Source: Eledone cirrhosa
Taxonomy: Eukaryota
Length of the DNA stretch: 64,000 nucleotides
Reading direction: 5' to 3'
NCBI GenBank assembly: GCA_964016885.1
Contig: OZ024765.1
Coordinates: 22,444,001 to 22,508,000, forward strand
Below are positions 8,601 through 62,665 of the stretch, piece by piece. Both the position numbers and the translations under genes were made by a program. Each line of letters opens with the position of its first letter. Positions within the stretch are counted from its first letter, which is position 1. The notes under the pieces were generated by a model. That model had not been told where the DNA came from, searched no databases, and worked only from the letters and a program-made list of their open reading frames with translations.

Positions 8601-9015
8601 TTCAAGTCGCTGGCTGGACTAAAAAGTCACACTCGTTCAGCGCATCGGTGGGGGTTCTCCTACATGGATATAAAGTAGTGGCCGTACTCGAAAACGAGTT
8701 GGCAGCCACCATATATATGTATGTATACATATATGTATACATATATGTATGTATATATATACAAACAAACCGAACATTATAATAAATGTTTGGTAAACCC
8801 ATACGTACATATATATATGTGTGCATATATGTATATATATACATACTACTGTACGTCTGTATACATATATGTATGTACGTATACATACATACTTACATTT
8901 AAGTATCAGCCGTACTAAGAGTGAGAAATGAAATTTTGTTTCATTCTTTTCCATTTATATATGTATACATATATGTATACATATATGTATGTATATATCT
9001 TTGTATATACATATA

Positions 9016-9810
9016 CAGGGTGTGGACGATATTTGTTCGCAATTTTCAACTGCTAATTTGTGCAAAAATGTTTACTTCTGTTGTCACTCTTGTCTTCATA
9101 AAAACAGTGACTATATTTCCATTATTTATTTTCAGAATAATTGATTATGAATAATTTTGAACCTCCAAATTTGTGGAAGAGACACAGAGTTCTTCTTGGA
9201 ATCCGCGCCGGGAGGACAAATAAGTAAATTTCAGACCAGAAGATCAACCCCCAGAACAACAGATGGCTCGCTGTCTCATCCAAAGATGTGACCAGAGTCA
9301 TGCAGACAAAGTTTCCAGCGACAACATTGGTCTTAGGTGTCGTCAGCAGTCAAGGTGACGTCATGCCACCTCACTTCTTCCCTGAGGCCCTCAAGCTGAA
9401 CACCGATGGCTACATCCGCGTTCTGAGCGAGGTAGTAAAGCCCTGGATCGACCAGGTAGCTGCAGGTAGGCCGTACGTGTGGCAGCAAGACTCAGCGCAC
9501 TGCCATACCAGCCGAAAGACCCAAGCCTGGCTGTCAGAGAACTTCGTTGACCACACTTCACCTGACATCTGGCCTCCCAGCTCGCCTGACTGCAACCCCC
9601 TCGACTTCTTTGTGTGGGGCGCAGTGGAACGAGACACCAACAGATCTAGCTGCAATACGAAAGACGATCTGAAGGCCAGGATCACAAGTGCCTTTAGGGG
9701 CCTAAGTTGGGGGACAGTGAAGAAGGCCTGTAGCCGGTTCCGAGGCAGCCTTGAGGCTGTCATCAAAGCCAATGGCGGGTTTTTCGAGTGAGATCAAAAG
9801 AACAAGCACT
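9016..9810 (+). mobile_element. Tc1/mariner DD37D (maT) transposon, internally deleted, lacks 3' TIR
   Basis: 5' TIR CAGGGTGTGGACGATATTTGTTCGCAA after TA; WQQDSA...SPDCNPLD with 37 residues between the catalytic Ds. Confidence 0.9.
9147..9791 (+). pseudogene. DD37D transposase remnant
   Basis: ATG 9147 MNNFEPPNLWKRH..., stop at 9225, in-frame deletion of most of the DNA-binding domain and first D, C-terminal catalytic half open. Confidence 0.85.
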
Positions 9811-14072: not shown

Positions 14073-14954
14073 CAGGGTGAGGACGATATTTGTTCGCAAG
14101 ATTACTCTCTAGCAAAAAATAAAACAGTAGTTTTATTTTTTAAGATATATTTATCAAACTTGGGTCAGTTTGTCTTCATGACTTGTTCTTTCAATCTCAC
14201 TCGATAAACCCGCCATTGGCTTTGATGACGGCCTCGGAACCTGCTACAAGCCTTCGTCACTGTCCCCTGACTTAGGTCCCTAAAGGCACTTGTGATCCTG
14301 GCCTTCAGATCGTCTTTCGTATTGCAGCCAGATCTGTTGGTGTCTCGTTCCACTGCGCCCCACACAAAGAAGTTCGAATGGGTTGCAGTCAGGCGAGCTG
14401 GGAGGCCAGATGTCAGGTGAAGTGTGGTCGACGAAGTTCTCTGACAGCCAGGCTTGGGTCTTTCGGCTGGTAAGGCAGGGCGCTGAGTCTTGCTGCCACA
14501 CGTACGGCCTACCCGCAGCTACCTGGTTGATCCAGGGCTTTACTACCTCGCTCAGAACGCAGATGTAGCCATCGGTGTTCAGCTTGAGGCCTTCAGGGAA
14601 GAAGTGAGGTGGCATGACGTCACCTTGACTACTGACGACACCTAAGACCAATGTTGTCACTGGAAACTTTGTCTGCATGACTCTGGGCATGTCTTTGGAT
14701 GAGACACCATTCTCCTGCTGATGCTGAGAAAGTCTGAAATTTCCTTATTTGTCCTCCCGGCGCGGATTCCAAGAAGAACTCCGTGTCTCTTCCACAAATT
14801 TGGAGGTTCAAAATTATTCATAATCAATTATTCTGAAAATAAATAATGGAAATATAGTCACTGTTTTTATGAAGACAAGAGTGACAACGGAAGTAAAAAA
14901 AATTTGCATAAAATTAGCAGTTGAAAATTGCGAACAAATATCGTCCACACCCTG
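14073..14954 (-). mobile_element. DD37D (maT) non-autonomous transposon with both TIRs
   Basis: 27-bp TIRs 14073-14099 and 14928-14954 (1 mismatch), TA flanks; frameshifted transposase closely similar to the 9016 copy. Confidence 0.92.
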
Positions 14955-15099
14955 TATATATACATATATATATATACATATATAGATAGTCCTATATGAG
15001 CGAGACACGGTCACCCGACCAACATTGCCTCAAGTGGGACAACTGCCATCTAACACATGCTAGCGTGGAAAATGGACATTAAACGAAGATGATGATGAT

Positions 15100-17629: not shown

Positions 17630-20595
17630 TCATTCATCATCATCATTTTACGTCCGCTTTTCCCTGCTTGCAAGGGTGGGACGGGTCTTATTCAGCACAG
17701 CATCTCTCCACTCGTCACGGTCCCTCGTCATCTCCACCGTGAGCTTCAATGATCTGAGGTCTGTTCTCACCACCTCCGCCCATGTTTTTCGTGGTCTACC
17801 TCTACCACGTCTTCCTTCAACTGGCAATTCCTGGCACTTCTTCACCCATCGGTCATCCTCCATGCGCATCACATGTCCATACCACCTCAGTCTCCTCTCC
17901 CATACACTACATTCTATCCCTCTCAGACACAGTTTCTCTCTCAACACATTTTTGCTGGGTCGTTCACGCACATTTACACTGCACATCCAACGGAGCATGC
18001 TTGCCTCATTTCTCTCCAGCCGTCTCATATCCTCTGCAGTTGCTGCCCATGTCTCACTACCATGCAGCATCGCGCTCCTCACACAGGCATCATACAACCG
18101 GCCTTTCGTACGCAGGGAGAAACCCTTCTTCGTCAACAGAGGAAGCAGCTCCCTAAACATCTTCCAACCCGTCCTTATTCTAGATACTATGGCCTCGGAA
18201 CACCCTCCTCCCATGCTAATCTGATCTCCTAGGTACCGGAAGCTATCCACCACTTCTATAGCGCCCTCCTGCATTTGAAAAATGTGTCTATCAATGCGAC
18301 TTCTACTGTCTAATTTCCCTGTACATCTACTGCATGCATATTTCTCCCTACCTGTTAGTTTGCCTGCTATCCCGCTACATCTCTTATGTACCCAGGATCT
18401 GCATTGTGTGCATTTTATAGAATTTATGCCAGTTCCTTTTCTGCATATCGAACATGGCCATTTCCCTGACGGAATCAGTTTTTGTCCTCTTTTCTACTCA
18501 TCAACACTTTTGTCTTAGCTAGATTCACTCTCAGTCCTCTTGCTTCCAACTGCTGTTTCCATAGCCAGAATTTATTCTCCAGCTCCTCTACTGATTCTGC
18601 TATAAGAACCAGATCGTCAGCATAGAGAAGTTCCCATGGACAGCCAGTCTTAAACTCCTCTGTTATGGCTTGGAGGACTACAATGAACAAGAGCGGGCTG
18701 AGGACCGAACCCTGATGTACTCCTACTTGTATCTGGAATTCCTCACTAAACTCCATTCCTACCCTGACTTTACTGAGAGTACCTCTGTACAAAGTTTGCA
18801 CTGTCCTCACAAGCCATTCCTCAACACCTAGTTTCCTTAGGGACCACCAGATGACAGATTGGGGTACTCTATCAAAGGCCTTCTCTAGGTCAACAAAGGC
18901 TAAGTATAGTGGCTTATTCTTCTCTAAGAACCTCTCTTGCAATTGTCTCACCAAGAAGAGGGCATCTGTTGTACTCTTCCCAGGCACAAAACCAAACTGC
19001 ATCTCATCTAGTTTGACCCTTTCTCTAATTAGTTGTGCTAAAATCCTTTCTGCCACTTTCATAACCTGATCTATCAGTTTTATACCCCTATAATTGCTCC
19101 TCTCCAAAGCACCCCCTTTACCTTTGTAGCAATTTATGAGAATACTGCTGCACCAGTCTTTGGGTATGACACCACCAAATATAGCCTGATTGATGATGCG
19201 TGCAACCAGTTTAGTGCCTACGTCCCCTGATGCCTTCAGCATCTCACAAACTATTACCGATGGTCCGGCAGCCTTACCATTTTTCATTTTTCTAATCGCC
19301 TCTTGGACCCTATATTCGTCAATCTCAATAGCTGATCCCTCTGTCGGATCTACTGAGGGTAATTTCTCTCTCTCCCATTCGTTCTCCACATTCATCAGTC
19401 TCTCATAATGACATTTCCAGGCCTCTTTTTTCTGATCATTCGTGACACTAAGTACACCGGCATCATTCCAGACACATTTATCTCCAACAACATCCTGATT
19501 TGCATTGACACACTGCCTTGCAATGTGGAACACCGCACGCCTCTGATCTTCCTGTCACACAACATTGGCAAACCTCCTACTCTCAGCCTCCCTGCGTGCG
19601 AAGTACACCTGATGTCTAGCTTCTCTCTTAGCGGCTGTATATCCTTCTCTACTCCCACCCTTTTTCTAATCCTTCCATGCTAGTCTTTTGGCTCTAATGG
19701 CCCTATCTACCGTGCTGTTCCACCACCAGATCACTTTCTAAATCGTCTTCTTTTTCGTCATATACATTTTGATGGGATTTCCTAAATTGGTATTTTAGTG
19801 AAAGGTCTTTTAGCTTCCAGACCTTTCTTCTCCACACCTTCCTATATCTCTCATTCCATCACTTCCTTACTGAGATATCATTAACGACTAACCTATGCTG
19901 TGGGGTACATTCTTTCCCAGGATATGCCTTGGTATTTGACACCATCTGCCTGTTCCACTGCCTAACTAGTAAGAAGTCAATCTGGCTTATGTGTTCGCCA
20001 GATTTGTAGGTTATTAGGTTGTTGGCAGGTTTCTGGAAGTTAGTGTTGCAAATAGTCAGTGTACTTGGATCACAAAATTTAAGAAGTCTCACTCCTTCTT
20101 CATTTCTTGAGCCGTAACCGTGCCCACCATGTACCCCAGTGTATCCATCCTGGAGCTGTCCAACATGACCATTGAAGTCCCCTGCTAGCATAACGATGTC
20201 TCCGTCTTCTGTCATTACGGCTGTTTGTACAAGTTGCTCATAAAAGCAGTCTTTCTCTTCTTTACCTAGTCCTGCTTGGGGAGCATAGGCCGAGATGATT
20301 GTCAGTAGTCTCCTGTTTACAACTAATCTAAGCTTAATTATTCGATTACTAACTCGAACTACCTCTATTGTCTTATTGATCCATTTCTAACCCATCATCC
20401 TTACCTACCCAGAAAAGCTTATAACTAAGATGTTTGCCTGCGACTAGTCTTGCAGAGGCACCTCTCCACCTCACCTCTTGCACGCAGCACACATCCACCT
20501 GCCTTCTCTCCAGCATCTCCGCTATTTCAGCAGATCTACCTCTGAGAGTGCCAACATTAAGTGTTGCAGCTCTGAGATGCGACGTCTTCATAGAT
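17630..20595 (-). mobile_element. Near full-length decayed RTE LINE (APE endonuclease, RT, PHD finger)
   Basis: APE motifs ATLNVGTL, CVQEVRW, AGDFNGHVG, SQIDF; RT motifs YRGIKL, QFGFVPG, FVDLEKAFD, GVHQGSVLSP, YADD; C-terminal GRGRPRKTW; frameshifts; linker replaced near 19740-19800; (GAT)n tail. Confidence 0.95.
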
Positions 20596-21063: not shown

Positions 21064-21448
21064 TGTGTGTGTGTGTATATGTATTAATGTATGTATGTGT
21101 ATATGTGTGTATATATGTGTATGTGTATGTGAGTGTACGTTTTATATATATGTGTATATGTATATATGTCTGCGTACATATATATATGTATATATGTATG
21201 TGTGTGTAAGTATGCTTTTGGGTTTTTTTTGTGTGTGTGTTTGCATGTGTAGTTTTATTTTATTTTATTTTTCCTTTCCTTCTCCCTTCTTCAGCCTCAC
21301 TTTCATATAGATTGCATTTTTGTTTTTGTAATCCAAATTCAATAAACAAACCAGGATTTTTTCGTTCTGAGGATTGAAAGCAAAACCTTTTGCTTTTAAG
21401 AAACCACTGGTAAATGGAATAATTGCCTTATGTTGTTTATCACATAAT

Positions 21449-21484
<36 letters not shown>

Positions 21485-21495
21485 ATAATGAATGA

Positions 21496-21532
<37 letters not shown>

Positions 21533-21650
21533 TAGACATAGAATATTCGAAAATATTCTGTATGTTTATAATAAACATTTTGAAGACCTAATCGCTATAG
21601 AATAGAATACGTCACGTATTACAATTAGATTCTCGATAAAAGCAAGGGAA

Positions 21651-22623
21651 GTAATCTACGCGTTTCATTCTCGTTAGAAATCATCAGGACTACATATCCA
21701 GTGCTTTTATCGAGAATGACACAGCTAGAGACTTATAGAATACTTAGCTGTGTACAGGAACTGGTTTGAAAGAGCGGTTGCCGGTCCGGCAGAAATTAGA
21801 AATTGGAATAAATGCTCTGAAATAGCGATATATATGTGAATATAGACATAGAATATTCGAAAATATTCTGTATGTTTATAATAAACATTTTGAAGACCTA
21901 ATCGCTATAGAATAGAATACGTCACGTATTACAATTAGATTCTCGATAAAAGCAAGGGAAGTAATCTACGCGTTTCATTCTCGTTAGAAATCATCAGGAC
22001 TACATATCCAGTGCTTTTATCGAGAATGACACAGCTAGAGACTTATAGAATACTTAGCTGTGTACAGGAACTGGTTTGAAAGAGCGGTTGCCGGTCCGGC
22101 AGAAATTAGAAATTGGAATAAATGCTCTGAAATAGCGATATATATGTGAATATAGACATAGAATATTCGAAAATATTCTGTATGTTTATAATAAACATTT
22201 TGAAGACCTAATCGCTATAGAATAGAATACGTCACGTATTACAATTAGATTCTCGATAAAAGCAAGGGAAGTAATCTACGCGTTTCATTCTCGTTAGAAA
22301 TCATCAGGACTACATATCCAGTGCTTTTATCGAGAATGACACAGCTAGAGACTTATAGAATACTTAGCTGTGTACAGGAACTGGTTTGAAAGAGCGGTTG
22401 CCGGTCCGGCAGAAATTAGAAATTGGAATAAATGCTCTGAAATAGCGATATATATGTGAATATAGACATAGAATATTCGAAAATATTCTGTATGTTTATA
22501 ATAAACATTTTGAAGACCTAATCGCTATAGAATAGAATACGTCACGTATTACAATTAGATTCTCGATAAAAGCAAGGGAAGTAATCTACGCGTTTCATTC
22601 TCGTTAGAAATCATCAGGACTAC
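21651..22623 (-). ncRNA. Four type I hammerheads (21651-21693, 21961-22003, 22271-22313, 22581-22623)
   Basis: Reverse complement of the motif at 22924-22966. Confidence 0.9.
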
Positions 22624-22923
22624 ATATCCAGTGCTTTTATCGAGAATGACACAGCTAGAGACTTATAGAATACTTAGCTGTGTACAGGAACTGGTTTGAA
22701 AGAGCGGTTGCCGGTCCGGCAGAAATTAGAAATTGGAATAAATGCTCTGAAATAGCGATATATATGTGAATATAGACATAGAATATTCGAAAATATTCTG
22801 TATGTTTATAATAAACATTTTGAAGACCTAATCGCTATAGAATAGAATACGTCACGTATTACAATTAGATTAAGTATTCTATAAGTCTCTAGCTGTGTCA
22901 TTCTCGATAAAAGCACTGGATAT

Positions 22924-24516
22924 GTAGTCCTGATGATTTCTAACGAGAATGAAACGCGTAGATTACTTCCCTTGCTTTTATCGAGAATCTAATTGTAATA
23001 CGTGACGTATTCTATTCTATAGCGATTAGGTCTTCAAAATGTTTATTATAAACATACAGAATATTTTCGAATATTCTATGTCTATATTCACATATATATC
23101 GCTATTTCAGAGCATTTATTCCAATTTCTAATTTCTGCCGGACCGGCAACCGCTCTTTCAAACCAGTTCCTGTACACAGCTAAGTATTCTATAAGTCTCT
23201 AGCTGTGTCATTCTCGATAAAAGCACTGGATATGTAGTCCTGATGATTTCTAACGAGAATGAAACGCGTAGATTACTTCCCTTGCTTTTATCGAGAATCT
23301 AATTGTAATACGTGACGTATTCTATTCTATAGCGATTAGGTCTTCAAAATGTTTATTATAAACATACAGAATATTTTCGAATATTCTATGTCTATATTCA
23401 CATATATATCGCTATTTCAGAGCATTTATTCCAATTTCTAATTTCTGCCGGACCGGCAACCGCTCTTTCAAACCAGTTCCTGTACACAGCTAAGTATTCT
23501 ATAAGTCTCTAGCTGTGTCATTCTCGATAAAAGCACTGGATATGTAGTCCTGATGATTTCTAACGAGAATGAAACGCGTAGATTACTTCCCTTGCTTTTA
23601 TCGAGAATCTAATTGTAATACGTGACGTATTCTATTCTATAGCGATTAGGTCTTCAAAATGTTTATTATAAACATACAGAATATTTTCGAATATTCTATG
23701 TCTATATTCACATATATATCGCTATTTCAGAGCATTTATTCCAATTTCTAATTTCTGCCGGACCGGCAACCGCTCTTTCAAACCAGTTCCTGTACACAGC
23801 TAAGTATTCTATAAGTCTCTAGCTGTGTCATTCTCGATAAAAGCACTGGATATGTAGTCCTGATGATTTCTAACGAGAATGAAACGCGTAGATTACTTCC
23901 CTTGCTTTTATCGAGAATCTAATTGTAATACGTGACGTATTCTATTCTATAGCGATTAGGTCTTCAAAATGTTTATTATAAACATACAGAATATTTTCGA
24001 ATATTCTATGTCTATATTCACATATATATCGCTATTTCAGAGCATTTATTCCAATTTCTAATTTCTGCCGGACCGGCAACCGCTCTTTCAAACCAGTTCC
24101 TGTACACAGCTAAGTATTCTATAAGTCTCTAGCTGTGTCATTCTCGATAAAAGCACTGGATATGTAGTCCTGATGATTTCTAACGAGAATGAAACGCGTA
24201 GATTACTTCCCTTGCTTTTATCGAGAATCTAATTGTAATACGTGACGTATTCTATTCTATAGCGATTAGGTCTTCAAAATGTTTATTATAAACATACAGA
24301 ATATTTTCGAATATTCTATGTCTATATTCACATATATATCGCTATTTCAGAGCATTTATTCCAATTTCTAATTTCTGCCGGACCGGCAACCGCTCTTTCA
24401 AACCAGTTCCTGTACACAGCTAAGTATTCTATAAGTCTCTAGCTGTGTCATTCTCGATAAAAGCACTGGATATGTAGTCCTGATGATTTCTAACGAGAAT
24501 GAAACGCGTAGATTAC
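22924..24516 (+). ncRNA. Six type I hammerheads (22924-22966 and every +310 bp to 24474-24516)
   Basis: gtagtc CTGATGA tttct-aacg-agaat GAAA CGCG TA gattac, with stem I extended by a perfect 16-bp helix. Confidence 0.9.
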
Positions 24517-24702
24517 TTCCCTTGCTTTTATCGAGAATCTAATTGTAATACGTGACGTATTCTATTCTATAGCGATTAGGTCTTCAAAATGTTTATTATA
24601 AACATACAGAATATTTTCGAATATTCTATGTCTATATTCACATATATATCGCTATTTCAGAGCATTTATTCCAATATATATATATATCAGAATAATGAAT
24701 GA

Positions 24703-24736
<34 letters not shown>

Positions 24737-24739
<3 letters not shown>

Positions 24740-24875
24740 CAGAATTAGCCGTCGAAACGGCTTGAGCTCAGCCGTCGGGGTCTTACTGGTTCCTATTACC
24801 CACTCTACTACCCTAAGTATTGAGTACTTTGGTGCGTTATGGTCCACCTGGTTCCTTACCACATTTCCTTCATTA
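24737..24875 (+). mobile_element. pLTR-like fragment with hammerhead 3' half and tail
   Basis: GAAA CGGC-ttgagctca-GCCG TC; relatives at 58135-58260 and 59655-59780. Confidence 0.6.
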
Positions 24876-43564: not shown

Positions 43565-44252
43565 ATGGTACTTTAGCTGCTATTTCTTGCAAAGTAGAGA
43601 TCCTCTCTCAATGAGGTATTTTAGCTGCTATTTCTAGCAAAGTAAAGATCCTTACTGCGGTATTTTGGTTGCTATTTCTAGCAAAGTAGAGATCCTCTCT
43701 CAGTGAGGTATTTTAGCTGCTATTTCTAGCAAAGTAAAGATCCTTACTGAGGTATTTTGGTTGCTATTTCTAGCAAAGTAGAGATCCTCTCTCAGTGAGG
43801 TATTTTAGCTGCTATTTCTAGCAAAGTAAAGATCCTTACTGAGGTATTTTGGTTACTATTTCTAGCAAAGTAGAGATCCTCTCTCAGTGAGGTATTTTAG
43901 CTGCTATTTCTAGCAAAGTAAAGATCCTTACTGAGGTATTTTGGTTGCTATTTCTAGCAAAGTAGAGATCCTCTCTCAGTAAGGTATTTTAGCTGCTATT
44001 TCTAGCAAAGTAAAGATCCTTACTGAGGTATTTTGGTTGCTATTTCTAACAAAGTAGAAATCCTCTCTCAGTGAGGTATTTTAGCTGCTATTTCTAGCAA
44101 AGTAAAGATCCTTACTGAGGTACTTTAGCTGCTATTTCTAGCAAAGAACAGATCCTCTCTCAGTGAGGTATTTTAGCTGCTATTTCTAGCAAAGTAGAGA
44201 TCCTCTTTCATTGAGGTATTTTAGCTGCTATTTCTAGCAAAGAACAGATCCT
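43565..44252. repeat. 92-bp dimeric tandem repeat (44+48 bp subunits)
   Basis: gtattttagctgctatttctagcaaagta... alternating two endings; period 92 (43691 to 43783). Confidence 0.92.
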
Positions 44253-45514: not shown

Positions 45515-45708
45515 GGTGGATTGGCAGTGTATCGGTAGAGGGTCTGACGCCATGCTTTGCAGCATAGAGTTATGGCCCTTTACGTTCAGAGTTCAAATCC
45601 TGCCGAGGTTAACTTTGCCTTTCATCCTTACGGGGTCGATAAAATAAAGTACCAGTAATACACTGGAATAATTGCTGGCCTTGTGCCAAAAGTAGAAACA
45701 ATTATTAT
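45515..45708 (+). mobile_element. tRNA-derived SINE, family 1, inserted at the start of the 22-bp array
   Basis: Matches 6616-6813; array-like sequence on both sides. Confidence 0.85.
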
Positions 45709-47200
45709 TTCGATATGATTTCGTTATTTCGATATGATTTCGTTATTATTTCAATATGGTCTTATCATTATTTCGATGTCGTTATTATTTCAATATGATT
45801 TCGTTATTATTTCAATATGGTTTTGTCATTATTTCTATATGGTTTTGTTATTATTTCAATATGGTTTTGTCATTATTTCTATATGGTTTTGTTATTATTT
45901 CAATATGGTTTTGTCATTATTTCTATATGGTTTTGTTATTATTTCAATATGGTTTTGTCATTATTTCTATATGGTTTTGTTATTATTTCTATATGGTTTT
46001 GTCATTATTTCTATATGGTTTTGTTATTATTTCTATATGGTTTTGTTATTATTTCAATATGGTTTTGTCATTATTTCTATATGGTTTTGTTATTATTTCT
46101 ATATGGTTTTGTTATTATTTCAATATGGTTTTGTCATTATTTCTATATGGTTTTGTTATTATTTCAATATGGTTTTGTCATTATTTCTATATGGTTTTGT
46201 TATTATTTCAATGTGGTTTTGTCATTATTTCTATATGGTTTTGTCATTATTTCTATATGGTTTTGTTATTATTTCAATATGGTTTTGTCATTATTTCTAT
46301 ATGGTTTTGTTATTATTTCTATATGGTTTTGTCATTATTTCTATATGGTTTTGTTATTATTTCTATATGGTTTTGTTATTATTTCTATATGGTTTTGTTA
46401 TTATTTCAATATGGTTTTGTCATTATTTCTATATGGTTTTGTTATTATTTCTATATGGTTTTGTTATTATTTCAATATGGTTTTGTCATTATTTCTATAT
46501 GGTTTTGTTATTATTTCAATATGGTTTTGTCATTATTTCTATATGGTTTTGTTATTATTTCAATATGGTTTTGTCATTATTTCTATATGGTTTTGTTATT
46601 ATTTCTATATGGTTTTGTTATTATTTCAATATGGTTTTGTCATTATTTCTATATGGTTTTGTTATTATTTCTATATGGTTTTGTTATTATTTCAATATGG
46701 TTTTGTCATTATTTCTATATGGTTTTGTTATTATTTCAATATGGTTTTGTCATTATTTCTATATGGTTTTGTTATTATTTCAATATGGTTTTGTCATTAT
46801 TTCTATATGGTTTTGTTATTATTTCAATATGGTTTTGTCATTATTTCTATATGGTTTTGTTATTATTTCTATATGGTTTTGTCATTATTTCTATATGGTT
46901 TTGTTATTATTTCTATATGGTTTTGTTATTATTTCAATATGGTTTTGTCATTATTTCTATATGGTTTTGTTATTATTTCTATATGGTTTTGTTATTATTT
47001 CAATATGGTTTTGTCATTATTTCTATATGGTTTTGTTATTATTTCTATATGGTTTTGTTATTATTTCAATATGGTTTTGTCATTATTTCGATATGATTTC
47101 GTTATTATTTCAATATGGTCTTATCATTATTTCGATATGTCGTTATTATTTCAATATGATTTTGTCATTATTTCTATATGGTTTTGTTATTATTTCGATA
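45709..47200. repeat. 22-bp tandem array, ~65 units
   Basis: Unit atatggttttgt(c/t)attatttc(t/a). Confidence 0.97.
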
Positions 47201-48301: not shown

Positions 48302-48305
48302 TTAA

Positions 48306-51300
48306 AGACTCCCATTAAGGTATATGACAGTATTAACTACAATTAATTCTGCAGTGTCTTAAGTCTCCCATTAAAATATATGGCTGTCTTAACTACCTCT
48401 AACTCTGCAGTGTCTTAAGTCTCCCATTAAGATATATGGCTGTCTTAACTACGTCTAACTCTGCAGTGTCTTAAGTCTCTCATTAAGATATATGGCTGTC
48501 TTAACTACGTCTAACTGTGCAGTGTCTTAAGTCTCCCATTAAGATATATGGCTGTCTTAACTACGTCTAACTCTGCAGTGTCTTAAGTCTCCCATTAAGA
48601 TATATGGCTGTCTTAACTCCATCTAACTCTGCAGTGTCTTAAGTCTCCCATTAAGATATATGGCTGTCTTAACTACGTCTAACTCTGCAGTGTCTTAAGT
48701 CTCCCATTAAGATATATGGCTGTCTTAACTACCTCTAACTCTGCAGTGTCTTAAGTCTCTCATTAAGATATATGGCTGTCTTAACTACGTCTAACTGTGC
48801 AGTGTCTTAAGTCTCTCATTAAGATATATGGCTGTCTTAACTACGTCTAACTGTGCAGTGTCTTAAGTCTCCCATTAAGATATATGGCTGTCTTAACTAC
48901 GTCTAACTCTGCAGTGTCTTAAGTCTCCCATTAAGATATATGGCTGTCTTAACTACGTCTAACTCTGCAGTGTCTTAAGTCTCTCATTAAGATATATGGC
49001 TGTCTTAACTACGTCTAACTCTGCAGTGTCTTAAGTCTCCCATTAAGATATATGGCTGTCTTAACTACGTCTAACTCTGCAGTGTCTTAAGTCTCTCATT
49101 AAGATATATGGCTGTCTTAACTACGTCTAACTCTGCAGTGTCTTAAGTCTCCCATTAAGATATATGGCTGTCTTAACTACGTCTAACTCTGCAGTGTCTT
49201 AAGTCCCTCATTAAGATATATGGCTGTCTTAACTACCTCTAACTGTGCAGTGTCTTAAGTCTCCCATTAAGATATATGGCTGTCTTAACTACCTCTAACT
49301 CTGCAGTGTCTTAAGTCTCCCATTAAGATATATGGCTGTCTTAACTACGTCTAACTCTGCAGTGTCTTAAGTCTCCCATTAAGATATATGGCTGTCTTAA
49401 CTACCTCTAACTCTGCAGTGTCTTAAGTCTCCCATTAAGATATATGGCTGTCTTAACTACCTCTAACTCTGCAGTGTCTTAAGTCTCCTATTAAGATATA
49501 TGGCTGTCTTAACTACCTCTAACTCTGCAGTGTCTTAAGTCTCCCATTAAGATATATGGCTGTCTTAACTACCTCTAATTCTGCAGTGTCTTAAGTCTCC
49601 CATTAAGATATATGGCTGTCTTAACTACCTCTAACTCTGCAGTGTCTTAAGTCTCCCATTAAGATATATGGCTGTCTTAACTACCTCTAACTCTGCAGTG
49701 TCTTAAGTCTCCCATTAAGATATATGGCTGTCTTAACTACCTCTAACTCTGCAGTGTCTTAAGTCTCCCATTAAGATATATGGCTGTCTTAACTACCTCT
49801 AACTGTGCAGTGTCTTAAGTCCCTCATTAAGATATATGGCTGTCTTAACTACCTCTAACTCTGCAGTGTCTTAAGTCTCCCATTAAGATATATGGCTGTC
49901 TTAACTACGTCTAACTGTGCAGTGTCTTAAGTCTCCCATTAAGATATATGGCTGTCTTAACTACCTCTAACTCTGCAGTGTCTTAAGTCTCCCATTAAGA
50001 TATATGACTGTCTTAACTACCTCTAACTCTGCAGTGTCTTAAGTCTCCCATTAAGATATATGGCTGTCTTAACTACCTCTAACTCTGCAGTGTCTTAAGT
50101 CTCCCATTAAGATATATGACTGTCTTAACTACCTCTAACTCTGCAGTGTCTTAAGTCTCCCATTAAGATATATGGCTGTCTTAACTACCTCTAACTCTGC
50201 AGTGTTTTAAGTCTCCCATTAAGATATATGACTGTCTTAACTACCTCTAACTCTGCAGTGTCTTAAGTCTCCCATTAAGATATATGGCTGTCTTAACTAC
50301 CTCTAACTCTGCAGTGTCTTAAGTCTCTCATTAAGATATATGGCTGTCTTAACTACGTCTAACTCTGCAGTGTCTTAAGTCCCTCATTAAGATATATGAC
50401 TGTCTTAACTACCTCTAACTCTGCAGTGTCTTAAGTCTCTCATTAAGATATATGGCTGTCTTAACTACGTCTAACTCTGCAGTGTCTTAAGTCCCTCATT
50501 AAGATATATGGCTGTCTTAACTATGTCTAACTCTGCAGTGTCTTAAGTCTCCCATTAAGATATATGGCTGTCTTAACTACCTCTAACTCTGCAGTGTCTT
50601 AAGTCTCTCATTAAGATATATGGCTGTCTTAACTACGTCTAACTGTGCAGTGTCTTAAGTCTCTCATTAAGATATATGGCTGTCTTAACTACCTCTAACT
50701 CTGCAGTGTCTTAAGTCTCTCATTAAGATATATGGCTGTCTTAACTACGTCTAACTCTGCAGTGTCTTAAGTCCCTCATTAAGATATATGGCTGTCTTAA
50801 CTACGTCTAACTCTGCAGTGTCTTAAGTCTCCCATTAAGATATATGGCTGTCTTAACTACGTCTAACTCTGCAGTGTCTTAAGTCCCTCATTAAGATATA
50901 TGGCTGTCTTAACTACCTCTAACTGTGCAGTGTCTTAAGTCTCCCATTAAGATATATGGCTGTCTTAACTACCTCTAACTCTGCAGTGTCTTAAGTCTCC
51001 CATTAAGATATATGGCTGTCTTAACTACGTCTAACTCTGCAGTGTCTTAAGTCTCCCATTAAGATATATGGCTGTCTTAACTACCTCTAACTCTGCAGTG
51101 TCTTAAGTCTCCCATTAAGATATATGACTGTCTTAACTACCTCTAACTCTGCAGTGTCTTAAGTCTCCCATTAAGATATATGGCTGTCTTAACTACCTCT
51201 AACTCTGCAGTGTCTTAAGTCTCCCATTAAGATATATGACTGTCTTAACTACCTCTAACTCTGCAGTGTCTTAAGTCTCTCTTTAAGATATATGGCTGTC

Positions 51301-53284
51301 TTAACTACGTCTAACTCTGCAGTGTCTTAAGTCTCCCATTAAGATATATGGCTGTCTTAACTACGTCTAACTCTGCAGTGTCTTAAGTCTCCCATTAAGA
51401 TATATGGCTGTCTTAACTACCTCTAACTCTGCAGTGTCTTAAGTCTCCCATTAAGATATATGGCTGTCTTAACTACGTCTAACTGTGCAGTGTCTTAAGT
51501 CTCCCATTAAGATATATGGCTGTCTTAACTACCTCTAACTCTGCAGTGTCTTAAGTCTCCCATTAAGATATATGGCTGTCTTAACTACCTCTAACTCTGC
51601 AGTGTCTTAAGTCTCCCATTAAGATATATGGCTGTCTTAACTACCTCTAACTCTGCAGTGTCTTAAGTCTCCCATTAAGATATATGGCTGTCTTAACTAC
51701 CTCTAACTCTGCAGTGTCTTAATTCTCCCATTAAGATATATGGCTGTCTTAACTACCTCTAACTCTGCAGTGTCTTAAGTCTCCCATTAAGATATATGGC
51801 TGTCTTAACTACCTCTAACTCTGCAGTGTCTTAAGTCTCCCATTAAGATATATGGCTGTCTTAACTACCTCTAACTCTGCAGTGTCTTAAGTCTCCTATT
51901 AAGATATATGGCTGTCTTAACTACCTCTAACTCTGCAGTGTCTTAAGTCTCCCATTAAGATATATGGCTGTCTTAACTACCTCTAACTCTGCAGTGTCTT
52001 AAGTCTCCCATTAAGATATATGGCTGTCTTAACTACCTCTAACTCTGCAGTGTCTTAAGTCTCCCATTAAGATATATGGCTGTCTTAACTACCTCTAACT
52101 CTGCAGTGTCTTAAGTCTCCCATTAAGATATATGGCTGTCTTAACTACCTCTAACTCTGCAGTGTCTTAAGTCTCCCATTAAGATATATGGCTGTCTTAA
52201 CTACCTCTAACTGTGCAGTGTCTTAAGTCCCTCATTAAGATATATGGCTGTCTTAACTACCTCTAACTCTGCAGTGTCTTAAGTCTCCCATTAAGATATA
52301 TGGCTGTCTTAACTACGTCTAACTCTGCAGTGTCTTAAGTCTCCCATTAAGATATATGGCTGTCTTAACTACCTCTAACTCTGCAGTGTCTTAAGTCTCC
52401 CATTAAGATATATGACTGTCTTAACTACCTCTAACTCTGCAGTGTCTTAAGTCTCCCATTAAGATATATGGCTGTCTTAACTACCTCTAACTCTGCAGTG
52501 TCTTAAGTCTCCCATTAAGATATATGACTGTCTTAACTACCTCTAACTCTGCAGTGTCTTAAGTCTCCCATTAAGATATATGGCTGTCTTAACTACCTCT
52601 AACTCTGCAGTGTTTTAAGTCTCCCATTAAGATATATGACTGTCTTAACTACCTCTAACTCTGCAGTGTCTTAAGTCTCCCATTAAGATATATGGCTGTC
52701 TTAACTACCTCTAACTCTGCAGTGTCTTAAGTCCCTCATTAAGATATATGACTGTCTTAACTACCTCTAACTCTGCAGTGTCTTAAGTCTCTCATTAAGA
52801 TATATGGCTGTCTTAACTACGTCTAACTCTGCAGTGTCTTAAGTCCCTCATTAAGATATATGGCTGTCTTAACTATGTCTAACTCTGCAGTGTCTTAAGT
52901 CTCCCATTAAGATATATGGCTGTCTTAACTACCTCTAACTCTGCAGTGTCTTAAGTCTCTCATTAAGATATATGGCTGTCTTAACTACATCTAACTGTGC
53001 AGTGTCTTAAGTCTCTCATTAAGATATATGGCTGTCTTAACTACGTCTAACTCTGCAGTGTCTTAAGTCTCTCATTAAGATATATGACTGTCTTAACTAC
53101 CTCTAACTCTGCAGTGTCTTAAGTCTCTCATTAAGATATATGGCTGTCTTAACTACCTCTAACTCTGCAGTGTCTTAAGTCTCTCATTAAGATATATGGC
53201 TGTCTTAACTACGTCTAACTCTGCAGTGTCTTAAGTCTCTCATTAAGATATATCACTGTCTTAACTACCTTTAACCCTGCAGTG
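48306..53284. repeat. 56-bp tandem array, ~89 units
   Basis: Unit ctctgcagtgtcttaagtctcccattaagatatatggctgtcttaactac(g/c)tctaa. Confidence 0.97.
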
Positions 53285-53364
53285 ACTTCATCAAGGAAGG
53301 ATCTGTATCAAATCCTCTGTTTGTTGTATAAGCTTACACCACCTTGTACCACACAGAATATTTA

Positions 53365-54688
53365 AAAATAAAAATAATGAAATTATTGTGTACAGTGCTC
53401 AGGTGCACTACAACTCATCAAAGGTGTATGTATAGTACATAGAATAATGTACAAATGTCAGGAAAGTGAACAGTGTATGAGTCATGATATACACACAGAT
53501 ACATGTGTGTGTGTATGGAGGGGGGATATCTGGTGTAGTGTTGGCGAATCTCAGGGAGCATGGAGGTTTTCAAGGATGCAGTGTCTCGACAACTAACAAC
53601 TGATGCAGGTAGTTTGTTCCATGGAGGTTTTAAAGGATGCAGTGTCTCGACAGCTAACAACTGATGCAGGTAGTTTGTTCCATGGAGGTTTTAAAGGATG
53701 CAGTGTCTCGACAGCTAACATCTGATGCAGGTAGTTTGTTCCATGGAGGTTTTAAAGGATGCAGTGTCTCGACAACTAACAACTGATGCAGGTAGTTTGT
53801 TACATGGAGGTTTTAAAGGATGCAGTGTCTCGACAGCTAACAACTGATGCAGGGAGTTTGTTACATGGAGGTTTTAAAGGATGCAGTGTCTCGACAGCTA
53901 ACAACTGATGCAGGTAGTTTGTTCCATGGGGGTTTTAAAGGATGCAGTGTCTCGACAGCTAACAACTGATGCAGGTAGTTTGTTACATGGAGGTTTTAAA
54001 GGATGCAGTGTCTCGACAGCTAACAACTGATGCAGGTAGTTTGTTCCATGGGGCTTTTAAAGGATGCAGTGTCTCGACAACTAACAACTGATGCAGGGAG
54101 TTTGTTACATGGAGGTTTTAAAGGATGCAGTGTCTCGACAACTAACAACTGATGCAAGGAGCTTGTTCCATGGATGTTTTAAAGGATGCAGAGTCTCGAC
54201 AGCTAACAACTGATGCAGGGAGTTTGTTCCATGGATGTTTTAATGGATGCAGTGTCTCGACAGCTAACAACTGATGCAGGTAGTTTGTTCCATGGGGGTT
54301 TTAAAGGATGCAGTGTCTCGACAGCTAACAACTGATGCAGGTAGTTTGTTACATGGAGGTTTTAAAGGATGCAGTGTCTCGACAACTAACAACTGATGCA
54401 GGGAGTTTGTTACATGGAGGTTTTAAAGGATGCAGAGTCTCGACAGCTAACAACTGATGCAAGGAGTTTGTTCCATGGAGGTTTTAAAGGATGCAGTGTC
54501 TCGACAACTAACAACTGATGCAAGGAGCTTGTTCCATGGATGTTTTAAAGGATGCAGAGTCTCGACAGCTAACAACTGATGCAAGGAGTTTGTTCCATGG
54601 AGGTTTTAAAGGATGCAGTGTCTCGACAGCTAACAACTGATGCAGGGAGTTTGTTCTATGCTTCAGCAACTCTGAGCCTGAAAAAAAC
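53365..54688 (-). mobile_element. CR1/L2-like LINE 3' end containing a 61-bp array
   Basis: Minus: FFRLRVAEA*NKLPASVVSCRDTASFKTSM; 3' UTR also at 58350-58436. Confidence 0.75.
53559..54660. repeat. 61-bp tandem array, ~18 units
   Basis: Unit catggaggttttaaaggatgcagtgtctcgacagctaacaactgatgcaggtagtttgttc. Confidence 0.96.
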
Positions 54689-60762: not shown

Positions 60763-61119
60763 ATATATATATACACACACACATATAGATAGATAGATAG
60801 AATTATATATATACATATGTGTATATATATATACACATATATATATATATATACACACACATATATATATATATATACATATAGATTCAGATATGTGTAC
60901 ATGCATGCATACACATATACCTACACACACATGCACATAGGTACATGTATATACATATATATATATATATACATACATGCATACACACTTGCACATACAT
61001 ACATTAATAAATACATCAATATATATATGTATATATAAATACATCAATATATACTTAAATAGAATACAAAGACTACGCCTCTGTAACGCAGTGTTACATT
61101 AGTATATATATACAAATTG

Positions 61120-61153
<34 letters not shown>

Positions 61154-61170
61154 TATATATACACATATAT

Positions 61171-62665
61171 AAAAATATGCCACTCTACCTGGCATTCGTT
61201 GATCTCGAGAAAGCCTTTGACAGAGTCCCCTGTGCTATAATCTGGTGGGTTCTTAGAAAACTAGGAGTAGATGAATGGCTTGTGAAAGCTGTACAAGCCA
61301 TGTATAGGGGAGCAGTCAGCAAAGTTAGGATTAGCAATGAGTATAGCGGGGAATTTAGCGTACAGGTTGGGGTCAACCAGGGCTCTGTTCTTAGCCCTCT
61401 CCTATTCATCATAGTCCTGCAGGCAATAACGGAGGAGTTTAAGACCGGATGCCCATGGGAACTCCTGTATGCTGATGACCTCGCACTTATAGCTGAATCT
61501 ATGGTAGAACTAGAGAAGAAATTCCAAACTTGGAAGCAGGGACTAGAAAGAAAGGGTCTCAAAGTCAACATGACAAAGACTAAGGTCCTTGTAAGTAGAC
61601 GAGAAAACAGAACCCAGATTCCCTCAGGGAAATGGCCTTGCTCATTATGTAGGAAAGGTGTAGGTAGGAACTCCATTCTCTGCCCCAAATGCAAACAATG
61701 GGTACACAAGAGATGTAGAGGGATCTCAGGAAGCTTAATTAAGAATGTAGGCTTCACATGCAGCAGCTGTGCTGGGAAAACAAACAGCAAACAGCCACAG
61801 AAAACAAGTACCACCAATCTCTGGGAGGCCTCTGTAGAAACAGTAGACAGCTTCTGCTACCTAGGTGACCGAATTAGCAGCGGAGGTGGGTGTTCGGAAA
61901 GTACAATAACTAGGGTAAGAACAGGATGGAAGAAGTTCAGGGAGCTACTGCCACTGCTAGCTGCAAAAAGGCTTCTCCCTCAAAATGAAAGGCAGACTGT
62001 ATGATGTGTGTATACGAACAGCAATGTTACATGGTAGTGAGACCTGGGCGCTGAAGGTGGAAGACTTACGTAGATTAGAGAGAAACGAAGCCTGCATGCT
62101 CCAATGGATGTGTAACAGTAATATACGCGAACGGCAAAGCATAAATGAATTGAGAGAGAGACTGAGCATAAGAGGAATCAAATGCTGTGTGCAGTAGTGG
62201 AGGTTGTGTTGGTATGGACATGTGAAGCGTATGAAGGATGACAGCTGCATAAAAAGGTGCAGAGCACTAGAAGTCGATGGATGAAGAAGACCTGGGATGA
62301 GGTGATAAAAGCCGACCTTACCCAATTACACCTCTCAAAGGCGATGACACACGACCGTGACCTCTGGCGTCACGCAGTAATTCAGAAGACCCGACCCCCC
62401 ATGGGTACAAGCTGAAGCATATAGACAATATGCCTCCACACCCACCCACTCTAAAGTGTAGGTGCCACGGAAAAAGCACCCAGCACTCACTGTAAATGAG
62501 GTTGGTGTTAGGAAGGGCATCCAGCTGTAGAAGTCAAGCCAAATCAGTTCCTGTATGAGCAAGGCATGGTCAACCAACCAGACACTGCCCACAACAGGAC
62601 AACCCATCTAACCCATGCTAGCGCGGAAGAACGGACGTAAAACGGTGATGATGATGATGATGATA
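61171..62665 (+). mobile_element. RTE LINE, 5'-truncated, RT plus PHD finger, decayed
   Basis: FVDLEKAFD, GVNQGSVLSP, YADD, C4HC3 finger 61633-61770, frameshift near 61965, stops, (GAT)n tail. Confidence 0.93.

What the first reader, a model, noticed from the sequence alone, without database searches (positions are those of the whole stretch)
21481..24705. Array is a divergent, inverted insertion with a target-site duplication inside (TA)n
Seen: cagaataatgaatgatga embedded in (TA)n occurs as a direct repeat at 21481-21498 and 24688-24705. The array switches strand at 22871 with 5' ends joined. The outer ends stop at different AT-rich points of the unit. The short pLTR hairpins in this window share the same minus-then-plus geometry. 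Inference: both strands of a staggered cut primed reverse transcription on a circular or multimeric RNA, plausibly by a Penelope-like RT/GIY-YIG enzyme acting in trans.
Basis: partly seen in the sequence, partly recalled or inferred. Interest (0 to 1): 0.75.

Follow-up and report, generated by a model that had tools for sequence, protein, structure and literature searches.

The report
Two-armed retrozyme with long target duplication
Ten copies of a small ribozyme-like repeat sit here as two back-to-back arms between duplicated host DNA, a layout shared by about a hundred sister insertions, likely made when a Penelope-type enzyme copied one RNA, probably a circle, from both cut DNA strands.

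Summary
Two arms of a 310-bp unit (4.3 and 5.8 copies, no mismatch) meet 5'-to-5' at 22871. The 18-mer in its TA context occurs only twice in the 3.0-Gb genome, once on each side. The unit carries a type I hammerhead motif, so it is an animal non-LTR retrozyme.

The inversion is the family rule. The outer ends are not arbitrary AT-rich points: 103 of 104 resolved two-armed loci have one end at site A (unit 118-139) and one at site B (157-172). This is the Penelope 'tail' footprint, and an intact Penelope-like element of this genome obeys the same rule (7 of 7 resolved pairs). Both arms carry the same unit variants in 38 of 39 loci, which favours one template, probably a circle.

The family's target duplication is about 11-12 bp (34 of 45 marked loci). 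The 18-62 bp here is an outlier; it probably arose at insertion (about 65%), but a duplication older than the insertion is not excluded. The enzyme, the RNA and the empty allele were not found. The scan reported this family before on other DNA of this genome.

The parts
21469..21528 (+). Left copy of the duplicated target, maximal extent: 12 nt of TA, the 18-mer (21481-21498), 30 nt of TA
21529..22871 (-). Left arm, 4.3 units, 4 hammerhead cores; RNA-sense 3' end at unit position 128 (site A), 5' end at 26
22871..22871 (.). 5'-to-5' junction, one shared base; not a perfect palindrome
22871..24675 (+). Right arm, 5.8 units, 6 hammerhead cores; 5' end at unit position 221, 3' end at 165 (site B)
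22924..22966 (+). Type I hammerhead motif (first plus copy): core at 22930, U-U at the base of stem II, palindromic stem III, predicted cut after 22960
   Evidence: sequence; Hammerhead_HH9 E 0.9, below gathering score; cofold -17.7 vs -5.8 kcal/mol for one copy
23060..23075 (+). 6-bp hairpin just 5' of site A, kept with compensatory changes in the sister family; candidate protein-binding site (inferred)
24639..24675 (+). 37-nt 'tail': the part of the unit between sites A and B, present at one outer end only
   Evidence: PMC11167929 and PMC8557442 passages
24676..24735 (+). Right copy of the duplicated target: 12 nt of TA, the 18-mer (24688-24705), 30 nt of TA
21330..21450 (+). Left neighbour: fragment of another abundant repeat with a hammerhead-type core at 21367 (edges approximate)
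24738..24868 (+). Right neighbour: 5'-truncated fragment of a different repeat that also forms head-to-head pairs with unequal ends
   Evidence: 61 BLAST rows

Best explanation
This is one recent insertion of a 310-nt hammerhead-motif retrozyme, laid down as two head-to-head multi-unit arms, likely by a Penelope-like reverse transcriptase/GIY-YIG enzyme acting in trans that would nick both strands in (TA)n and use each 3' end to copy the same RNA, probably a circle. Shown: the anatomy, the one-A-one-B rule, shared variants in both arms, and an 11-12-bp family duplication. Inferred: (1) arrays are transcribed, self-cleave, probably as dimers, and are ligated to circles; (2) an enzyme dimer binds near the hairpin before site A; (3) one target end primes at A and the other at B, using 1-9 nt of TA microhomology; (4) each enzyme runs round the template several times; (5) the two cDNAs are joined, usually by 0-5 nt of microhomology, and filled in. 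At this locus the top-strand end primed at A and the bottom-strand end at B. The duplication is 18-62 bp instead of 11-12, likely because the nicks fell in two neighbouring TA tracts, or because the top-strand end first copied about 48 nt of target DNA before switching to the RNA. Odds by step: Penelope-type two-ended priming 0.9, circle as the usual template 0.6, long duplication made at insertion 0.65.
For: Geometry and ends: set 1 (70 stretches of C1 plus the window) gave 58 independent two-armed loci, all A+B, none A+A or B+B. Set 2 (60 stretches chosen by their B end) gave 45 A partners and 1 B partner among 46 resolved. An intact 830-codon Penelope-like element with RT and GIY-YIG-type motifs shows the same one-each rule in 7 of 7 resolved pairs, of 9 fetched. 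PMC11167929: both strands cut and extended, two internal start sites, predicted dimer.

Duplication: 34 of 45 marked loci allow an 11- or 12-bp duplication, against 313 of 1980 swapped-flank controls.

One template: the same fixed variants in both arms in 38 of 39 loci, 16 haplotypes, 0.18 expected at random. Variants within a locus are in all units (71) or one unit (61), seldom between (10). Only 2 of 116 inner ends lie within 5 nt of the cleavage site.

Long duplication: 0 of 64 complex spacers between two TA tracts were repeated exactly, and a looser test found one such locus in 1.08 Mb with 5829 tracts.
Against: No RNA, circle or cleavage was observed, and no enzyme sharing sequence with the unit was found. 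The autonomous element examined has sites about 137 nt apart, not about 35, and no canonical hammerhead core.

Two unit-specific variants sit at the same unit in both arms (L062, L073; 42 unshared), which a monomer circle cannot give. L080 has arms that start on different haplotypes. The longest arms show periodic variants, so later local duplication occurs.

Single-armed or unresolved loci exist: 12 of 70 stretches in set 1 and 7 of 60 in set 2. Ten of 45 marked loci failed the strict duplication test. The window's duplication is five times the family mode, and several loci with a spacer beside the insertion did not duplicate it (for example L045, L046, L048, L058).
Confidence: 0.65

Rival explanations
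1. Same two-ended Penelope-type priming, but the template is an uncleaved multimeric transcript (linear or a multi-unit circle) from a homogeneous source array.
For: Unit-specific variants at the same unit of both arms in L062 and L073. In PMC11167929 unprocessed RNA was the main substrate in vitro. The stem III and U-U stem II suggest weak cleavage; 8 of 9 Xenopus dimers did not cleave (preprint).
Against: 11 of 16 haplotypes occur at one locus only yet fill every unit, which needs a one-unit bottleneck at some generation. Arm length would shrink each generation without a circle (inference).
Confidence: 0.22
2. The insertion had the usual 11-12-bp duplication and landed in the middle TA tract of an older tandem duplication that already held both 18-mers. 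This concerns the duplication only.
For: The 12 nt of TA between site B and the second 18-mer equal the family mode. Tandem repeats across TA tracts exist (L153). L143 is equally ambiguous, 12 or 58 bp.
Against: Such duplications are rare: 5 tracts at one locus of 5829, about 0.1 expected in some 100 insertions. Primer extension on the target also explains the 12 nt.
Confidence: 0.3
3. A short inverted insertion (one to two units per arm) that later grew by local unequal crossing-over, as the 2026 preprint proposes for retrozyme tandems.
For: It also predicts shared variants in both arms. Periodic variants occur in arms of 19-45 units (L047, L049, L068/69).
Against: Within-locus variants are mostly singletons (61 against 10 shared). 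Both arms reach at least one unit in 47 of 58 loci with almost no divergence. The more diverged sister family is mostly sub-unit to two units in the 30 loci viewed.
Confidence: 0.08
4. Assembly artefact from fold-back reads.
For: No record bridging 22871 was listed in 4 runs. One locus (L175) has mirrored flanks and B+B ends, and L151 has a garbled arm.
Against: The flanks here are different and unique, the arms differ in length and phase, the duplication is direct, and 103 loci follow a rule that fold-back cannot make.
Confidence: 0.02

Closest known systems
Metazoan non-LTR retrozymes (Cervera and de la Pena 2020, PMC7229834: passages and Discussion read; Li, Clavereau and Pollet 2026, 10.64898/2026.07.22.740005: parts 1-3 of 5 read)
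   Same: 150-450-bp non-coding tandem unit, low GC (about 34%), one type I hammerhead per unit; U-U at stem II as in axolotl HHR_Amex2 and a palindromic stem III as in HHR_Amex1; Penelope-like elements and circles proposed as the route.
   Different: The text read describes plain tandems. It reports no inverted two-armed insertions, fixed end sites or duplication length. The route is proposed there, not shown.
Penelope-like element insertions (PMC3846280 and PMC8557442: passages; PMC11167929: parts 1-2 of 4)
   Same: Head-to-head inverted copy, 30-40-nt tail at one end only, 8-10-bp duplications, (TA)n targets, both strands cut and extended, two internal start sites.
   Different: No ORF. Both arms are many units long. 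The two ends are almost strictly one A and one B, whereas in vitro no strand difference in start site was seen. PMC3846280 explained such inversions by self-priming on antisense RNA. This locus has an 18-62-bp duplication.
L1 twin priming (recalled; only a search listing seen)
   Same: Both target strands prime on one RNA and give a 5' inversion within a duplication.
   Different: No poly(A). Both primers start at fixed internal sites 35 nt apart. The arms copy the same sequence repeatedly, and inversion is the rule.
Long target duplications of R9 (126 bp) and Dualen (median 900 bp) LINEs (PMC9977147 passage)
   Same: Duplications far beyond 20 bp do occur in target-primed elements.
   Different: Different enzymes; here the long duplication is an exception within an 11-12-bp family.

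Membership tests
Metazoan non-LTR retrozyme | Tandem unit of 150-450 bp, GC under 50% | tested here: met
   310 bp, GC 0.34
Metazoan non-LTR retrozyme | Type I hammerhead motif in every unit | tested here: met
   10 cores with stems by inspection. Rfam: nothing at gathering score, HH9 at E 0.9
Metazoan non-LTR retrozyme | Non-coding, no LTR, dispersed as many loci | tested here: met
   No ORF of 150 aa in the array. 4204 exact hammerhead 37-mers; 756 B and 645 A ends on the forward strand. PBS/PPT not searched
Metazoan non-LTR retrozyme | Self-cleavage; expression as linear and circular RNA | not testable with these tools
   No RNA run on record
Penelope-type insertion footprint | Inverted 5'-truncated copy joined head-to-head | tested here: met
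   10 of the first 11 listed loci; 58 plus 46 two-armed loci
Penelope-type insertion footprint | 30-40-nt tail at one end only | tested here: met
   37 nt here; modal ends 130 and 165
Penelope-type insertion footprint | Short target duplication in AT-rich DNA | tested here: met
   11-12 bp in 34 of 45 loci; this locus is longer, 18-62 bp
Autonomous Penelope-like element | ORF with RT and GIY-YIG | tested here: not met
   None in the array
Non-autonomous derivative of a particular Penelope family | Homology of the unit to that family's pLTR | tested here: inconclusive
   No match downstream of the GIY-YIG fragments in fetched loci or in the intact 6.67-kb element; other families not surveyed

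The most novel reading that the evidence does not exclude
A Penelope-type enzyme dimer grips one RNA circle, assigns one subunit to each of two fixed start sites and each target strand, and rolls both round the circle. Its two nicks are usually 11-12 bp apart but are not rigidly coupled, and here lie about 60 bp apart in neighbouring TA tracts. This would be a two-primer rolling-circle mode of retrotransposition that also explains the Penelope inverted pLTR and tail.
Probability: 0.4. Interest if true: 0.8.

Novelty: new variant of a known kind. Interest (0 to 1): 0.6.

Why it matters
How animal retrozymes move, and why Penelope elements leave inverted ends with a one-sided tail, are both stated as open in the papers read. 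This young family gives a simple rule (one A end, one B end, 11-12-bp stagger, one haplotype in both arms) that turns both questions into direct in vitro tests with a 310-nt RNA. This locus adds a rare marked target that limits how far apart the two nicks can be. The element class and the footprint are each known; their combination was not found in six paper searches.

Tried and rejected
DNA search of the genome with the unit returned nothing because common words are skipped; patterns were used instead. Rfam gave no match at gathering score.

No RNA holder listed. Laying 4 runs on the left junction was uninformative because the TA/18-mer stretch was skipped. Laying 4 runs on the central junction listed no bridging record, but listings were cut and contigs in this repeat are about 30-60 nt. 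Neither counts for or against.

Partner search: no homology of the unit to sequence downstream of GIY-YIG fragments or to the intact 830-codon element. Pfam found nothing significant for that ORF; it is called Penelope-like from motifs seen in the translation and from weak RVT_1 and GIY-YIG hits in other fragments. The RTs in the window are of a different, LINE-like build and were not linked.

Rejected: run-off on linear monomers (inner ends avoid the cleavage site); ends at random AT-rich points; an excess of variants near the ligation site (noticed by eye, not tested, not claimed); 'A primes first' (single arms occur for both sites). The L050 insert is not a recognisable copy of the unit (score below shuffles).

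Rows dropped before counts: second copy of L055; in set 2, L150 and L155 (match inside an arm), L162, L163 and L174 (arm runs off the stretch), L151 (garbled), L173 (not oriented), L175 (counted as B+B, left out of the duplication test). Three A-end places in the C1 range were not fetched. Set 2 used 60 of the 100 listed rows of 128 matches, chosen for a marker close to site B. No supplements were read; Fig. S9 of PMC7229834 and the preprint's tables may bear on novelty.

Full report
OBSERVATION. The 18-mer lies at 21481-21498 and 24688-24705 and, in its TA context, at no other place in the 3.0-Gb genome. Between the copies lie two arms of a 310-bp unit with no mismatch: 21529-22871 (minus, 4.3 units) and 22871-24675 (plus, 5.8 units), sharing one base. 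The strict duplication is 60-62 bp with its TA runs and at least 18 bp without them. Six short hairpins of the window with hammerhead-type cores in both arms are all minus-then-plus.

THE UNIT. Each unit holds a type I hammerhead motif (10 cores), with a U-U pair at the base of stem II and a self-complementary stem III. Two copies cofold at -17.7 kcal/mol against -5.8 for one. Rfam gives only a weak HH9 match. Size, GC and tandem form match metazoan non-LTR retrozymes (PMC7229834). Fixed variants within the motif fall on tolerant positions, such as N7, loop II and wobble pairs; one closes the U-U pair (read; no statistic made). I number the unit from the predicted cleavage site. One 37-mer of the motif occurs 4204 times. 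Forward-strand end patterns give 756 and 645 hits, so roughly 1300-1500 insertions (estimate).

THE INVERSION IS THE RULE. Ten of the first 11 listed loci are minus-then-plus. From 70 stretches of C1 plus the window, 58 independent loci are two-armed and 12 stretches are single-armed or unresolved. Outer ends form two clusters, A (118-139, mode 130) and B (157-172, mode 165). Every one of the 58 loci has one of each (where L055 is counted twice). In a second set of 60 stretches chosen by their B end, 45 partners were A and one was B; that one (L175) has mirrored flanks. Inner ends spread round the unit and only 2 of 116 are near the cleavage site. Junctions overlap by 1-5 nt in 31 of 59 rows. 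A 6-bp hairpin just before site A is kept with compensatory changes in a sister family of about 5000 copies that uses the same two ends.

PENELOPE FOOTPRINT. An inverted truncated copy, a 30-40-nt tail at one end and (TA)n targets are described for Penelope-like elements (PMC3846280; PMC8557442). A purified Penelope-like protein cuts and extends both strands, starts at two internal sites that bound the tail, and is predicted to be a dimer (PMC11167929). In this genome a very young element with an intact 830-codon frame (150 matches scored, most identical) and a 6673-bp unit shows one-each ends in 7 of 7 resolved pairs, of 9 fetched. It shares no sequence with the unit and its sites are about 137 nt apart, so it is a control for the rule, not the identified partner.

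TARGET DUPLICATION. Most insertions lie in pure TA and cannot be read. Among 45 loci with a marker base near site B, 35 duplicate the marker and 34 allow 11 or 12 bp, against 16% of swapped-flank controls. The window's 18-62 bp is the longest of all loci tested; L143 allows 12 or 58. Three readings remain: nicks in two neighbouring TA tracts; a normal stagger followed by about 48 nt of target copying before the switch to RNA; or an older duplication. The 12 nt of TA between site B and the second 18-mer equal the family mode, which suits the last two. Older duplications of this form are rare, but spacers beside other insertions were not duplicated. I give about 0.65 to an insertion-made duplication.

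TEMPLATE. In 38 of 39 loci with at least two units per arm, both arms carry the same fixed variants; 0.18 is expected at random from 16 haplotypes. Variants are in all units (71) or one (61), seldom between (10). This shows one template sequence per event and suggests a one-unit bottleneck, as a circle gives and as PMC7229834 proposed. Against a monomer circle as the only route: two unit-specific variants recur at the same unit of both arms (L062, L073), L080 starts on two haplotypes, and the longest arms show later duplication.

MECHANISM. Likely: transcription, self-cleavage and ligation give a 310-nt circle; a Penelope-type dimer binds it, nicks both strands in (TA)n with 3' overhangs, primes at A from one end and at B from the other, runs round several times, and the cDNAs are joined by microhomology. 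The anatomy and statistics are shown; the RNA, the circle and the enzyme are inferred. Independent reads did not settle the junction or the empty allele.

COMPARISON AND NOVELTY. It meets the sequence criteria of a non-LTR retrozyme and carries the Penelope footprint, but is not an autonomous element. The 2026 preprint links the two classes by distribution and pLTR homology and favours local amplification. I found no report of two-armed retrozyme insertions in six searches; no supplements were read. Earlier notes of this scan describe the same family at other loci (one search found nothing). I read them after forming my view (stated); they are not independent support. They call the host a cephalopod, which I did not test.

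VERDICT. A real feature; a new variant of a known kind; interest 0.6. What this locus adds is the unusually long, marked duplication.

Noticed in passing
G000:C1 183,739,000-183,748,900 (L253) and at least 150 places: Very young Penelope-like element with an intact 830-codon frame, a 6.67-kb unit with a long TA-rich UTR, tandem arrays of up to 5 units, two end sites about 137 nt apart and no canonical hammerhead core. A ready candidate for an in vitro assay.
   Followed up: partly
L101-L130; pattern count 5263: More diverged sister family of about 320 bp with the same A/B region and hairpin but a different, often decayed hammerhead and short arms.
   Followed up: partly
L137 junction; window 24738-24868: A 54-nt piece of the window's right-neighbour repeat is captured between the two arms at L137, a possible template switch to another family's RNA and a lead to the shared enzyme. 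In L138 a GIY-YIG frame ends about 1.26 kb upstream of that repeat.
   Followed up: partly
L090:604-875, L092:631-917: Two single A-ended arms stop at unit positions 167 and 163, that is at site B after just under one round, as if blocked by a bound partner.
   Followed up: no
L050:1699-1970; L151 left arm: A 272-bp unassigned insert at the L050 junction; at L151 a C-rich, garbled copy of the arm, possibly a sequencing error.
   Followed up: partly
L068/L069 (C1 about 97.46-97.48 Mb): An arm of about 45 units with variants recurring 27 units apart, a higher-order repeat forming in a young array.
   Followed up: partly
L090:4252-7028: Inverted pair of Penelope-like 3' halves whose outer flanks are mirror copies, as at L175: secondary inversion or fold-back artefact.
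   Followed up: no
window 8968-9806 and 14182-14998: Inverted pair, 90% alike, with a frame resembling a Tc1/mariner transposase end (recalled; Pfam gave no hit).
   Followed up: partly
window 17648-20386 (minus) and 61087-62260: LINE-like fragments with endonuclease, RT and PHD-finger hits.
   Followed up: partly
window 26908-30521, 43567-44252, 45702-47200, 48305-53288, 53559-54660: Young minisatellite arrays of 65, 92, 22, 56 and 61 bp.
   Followed up: no
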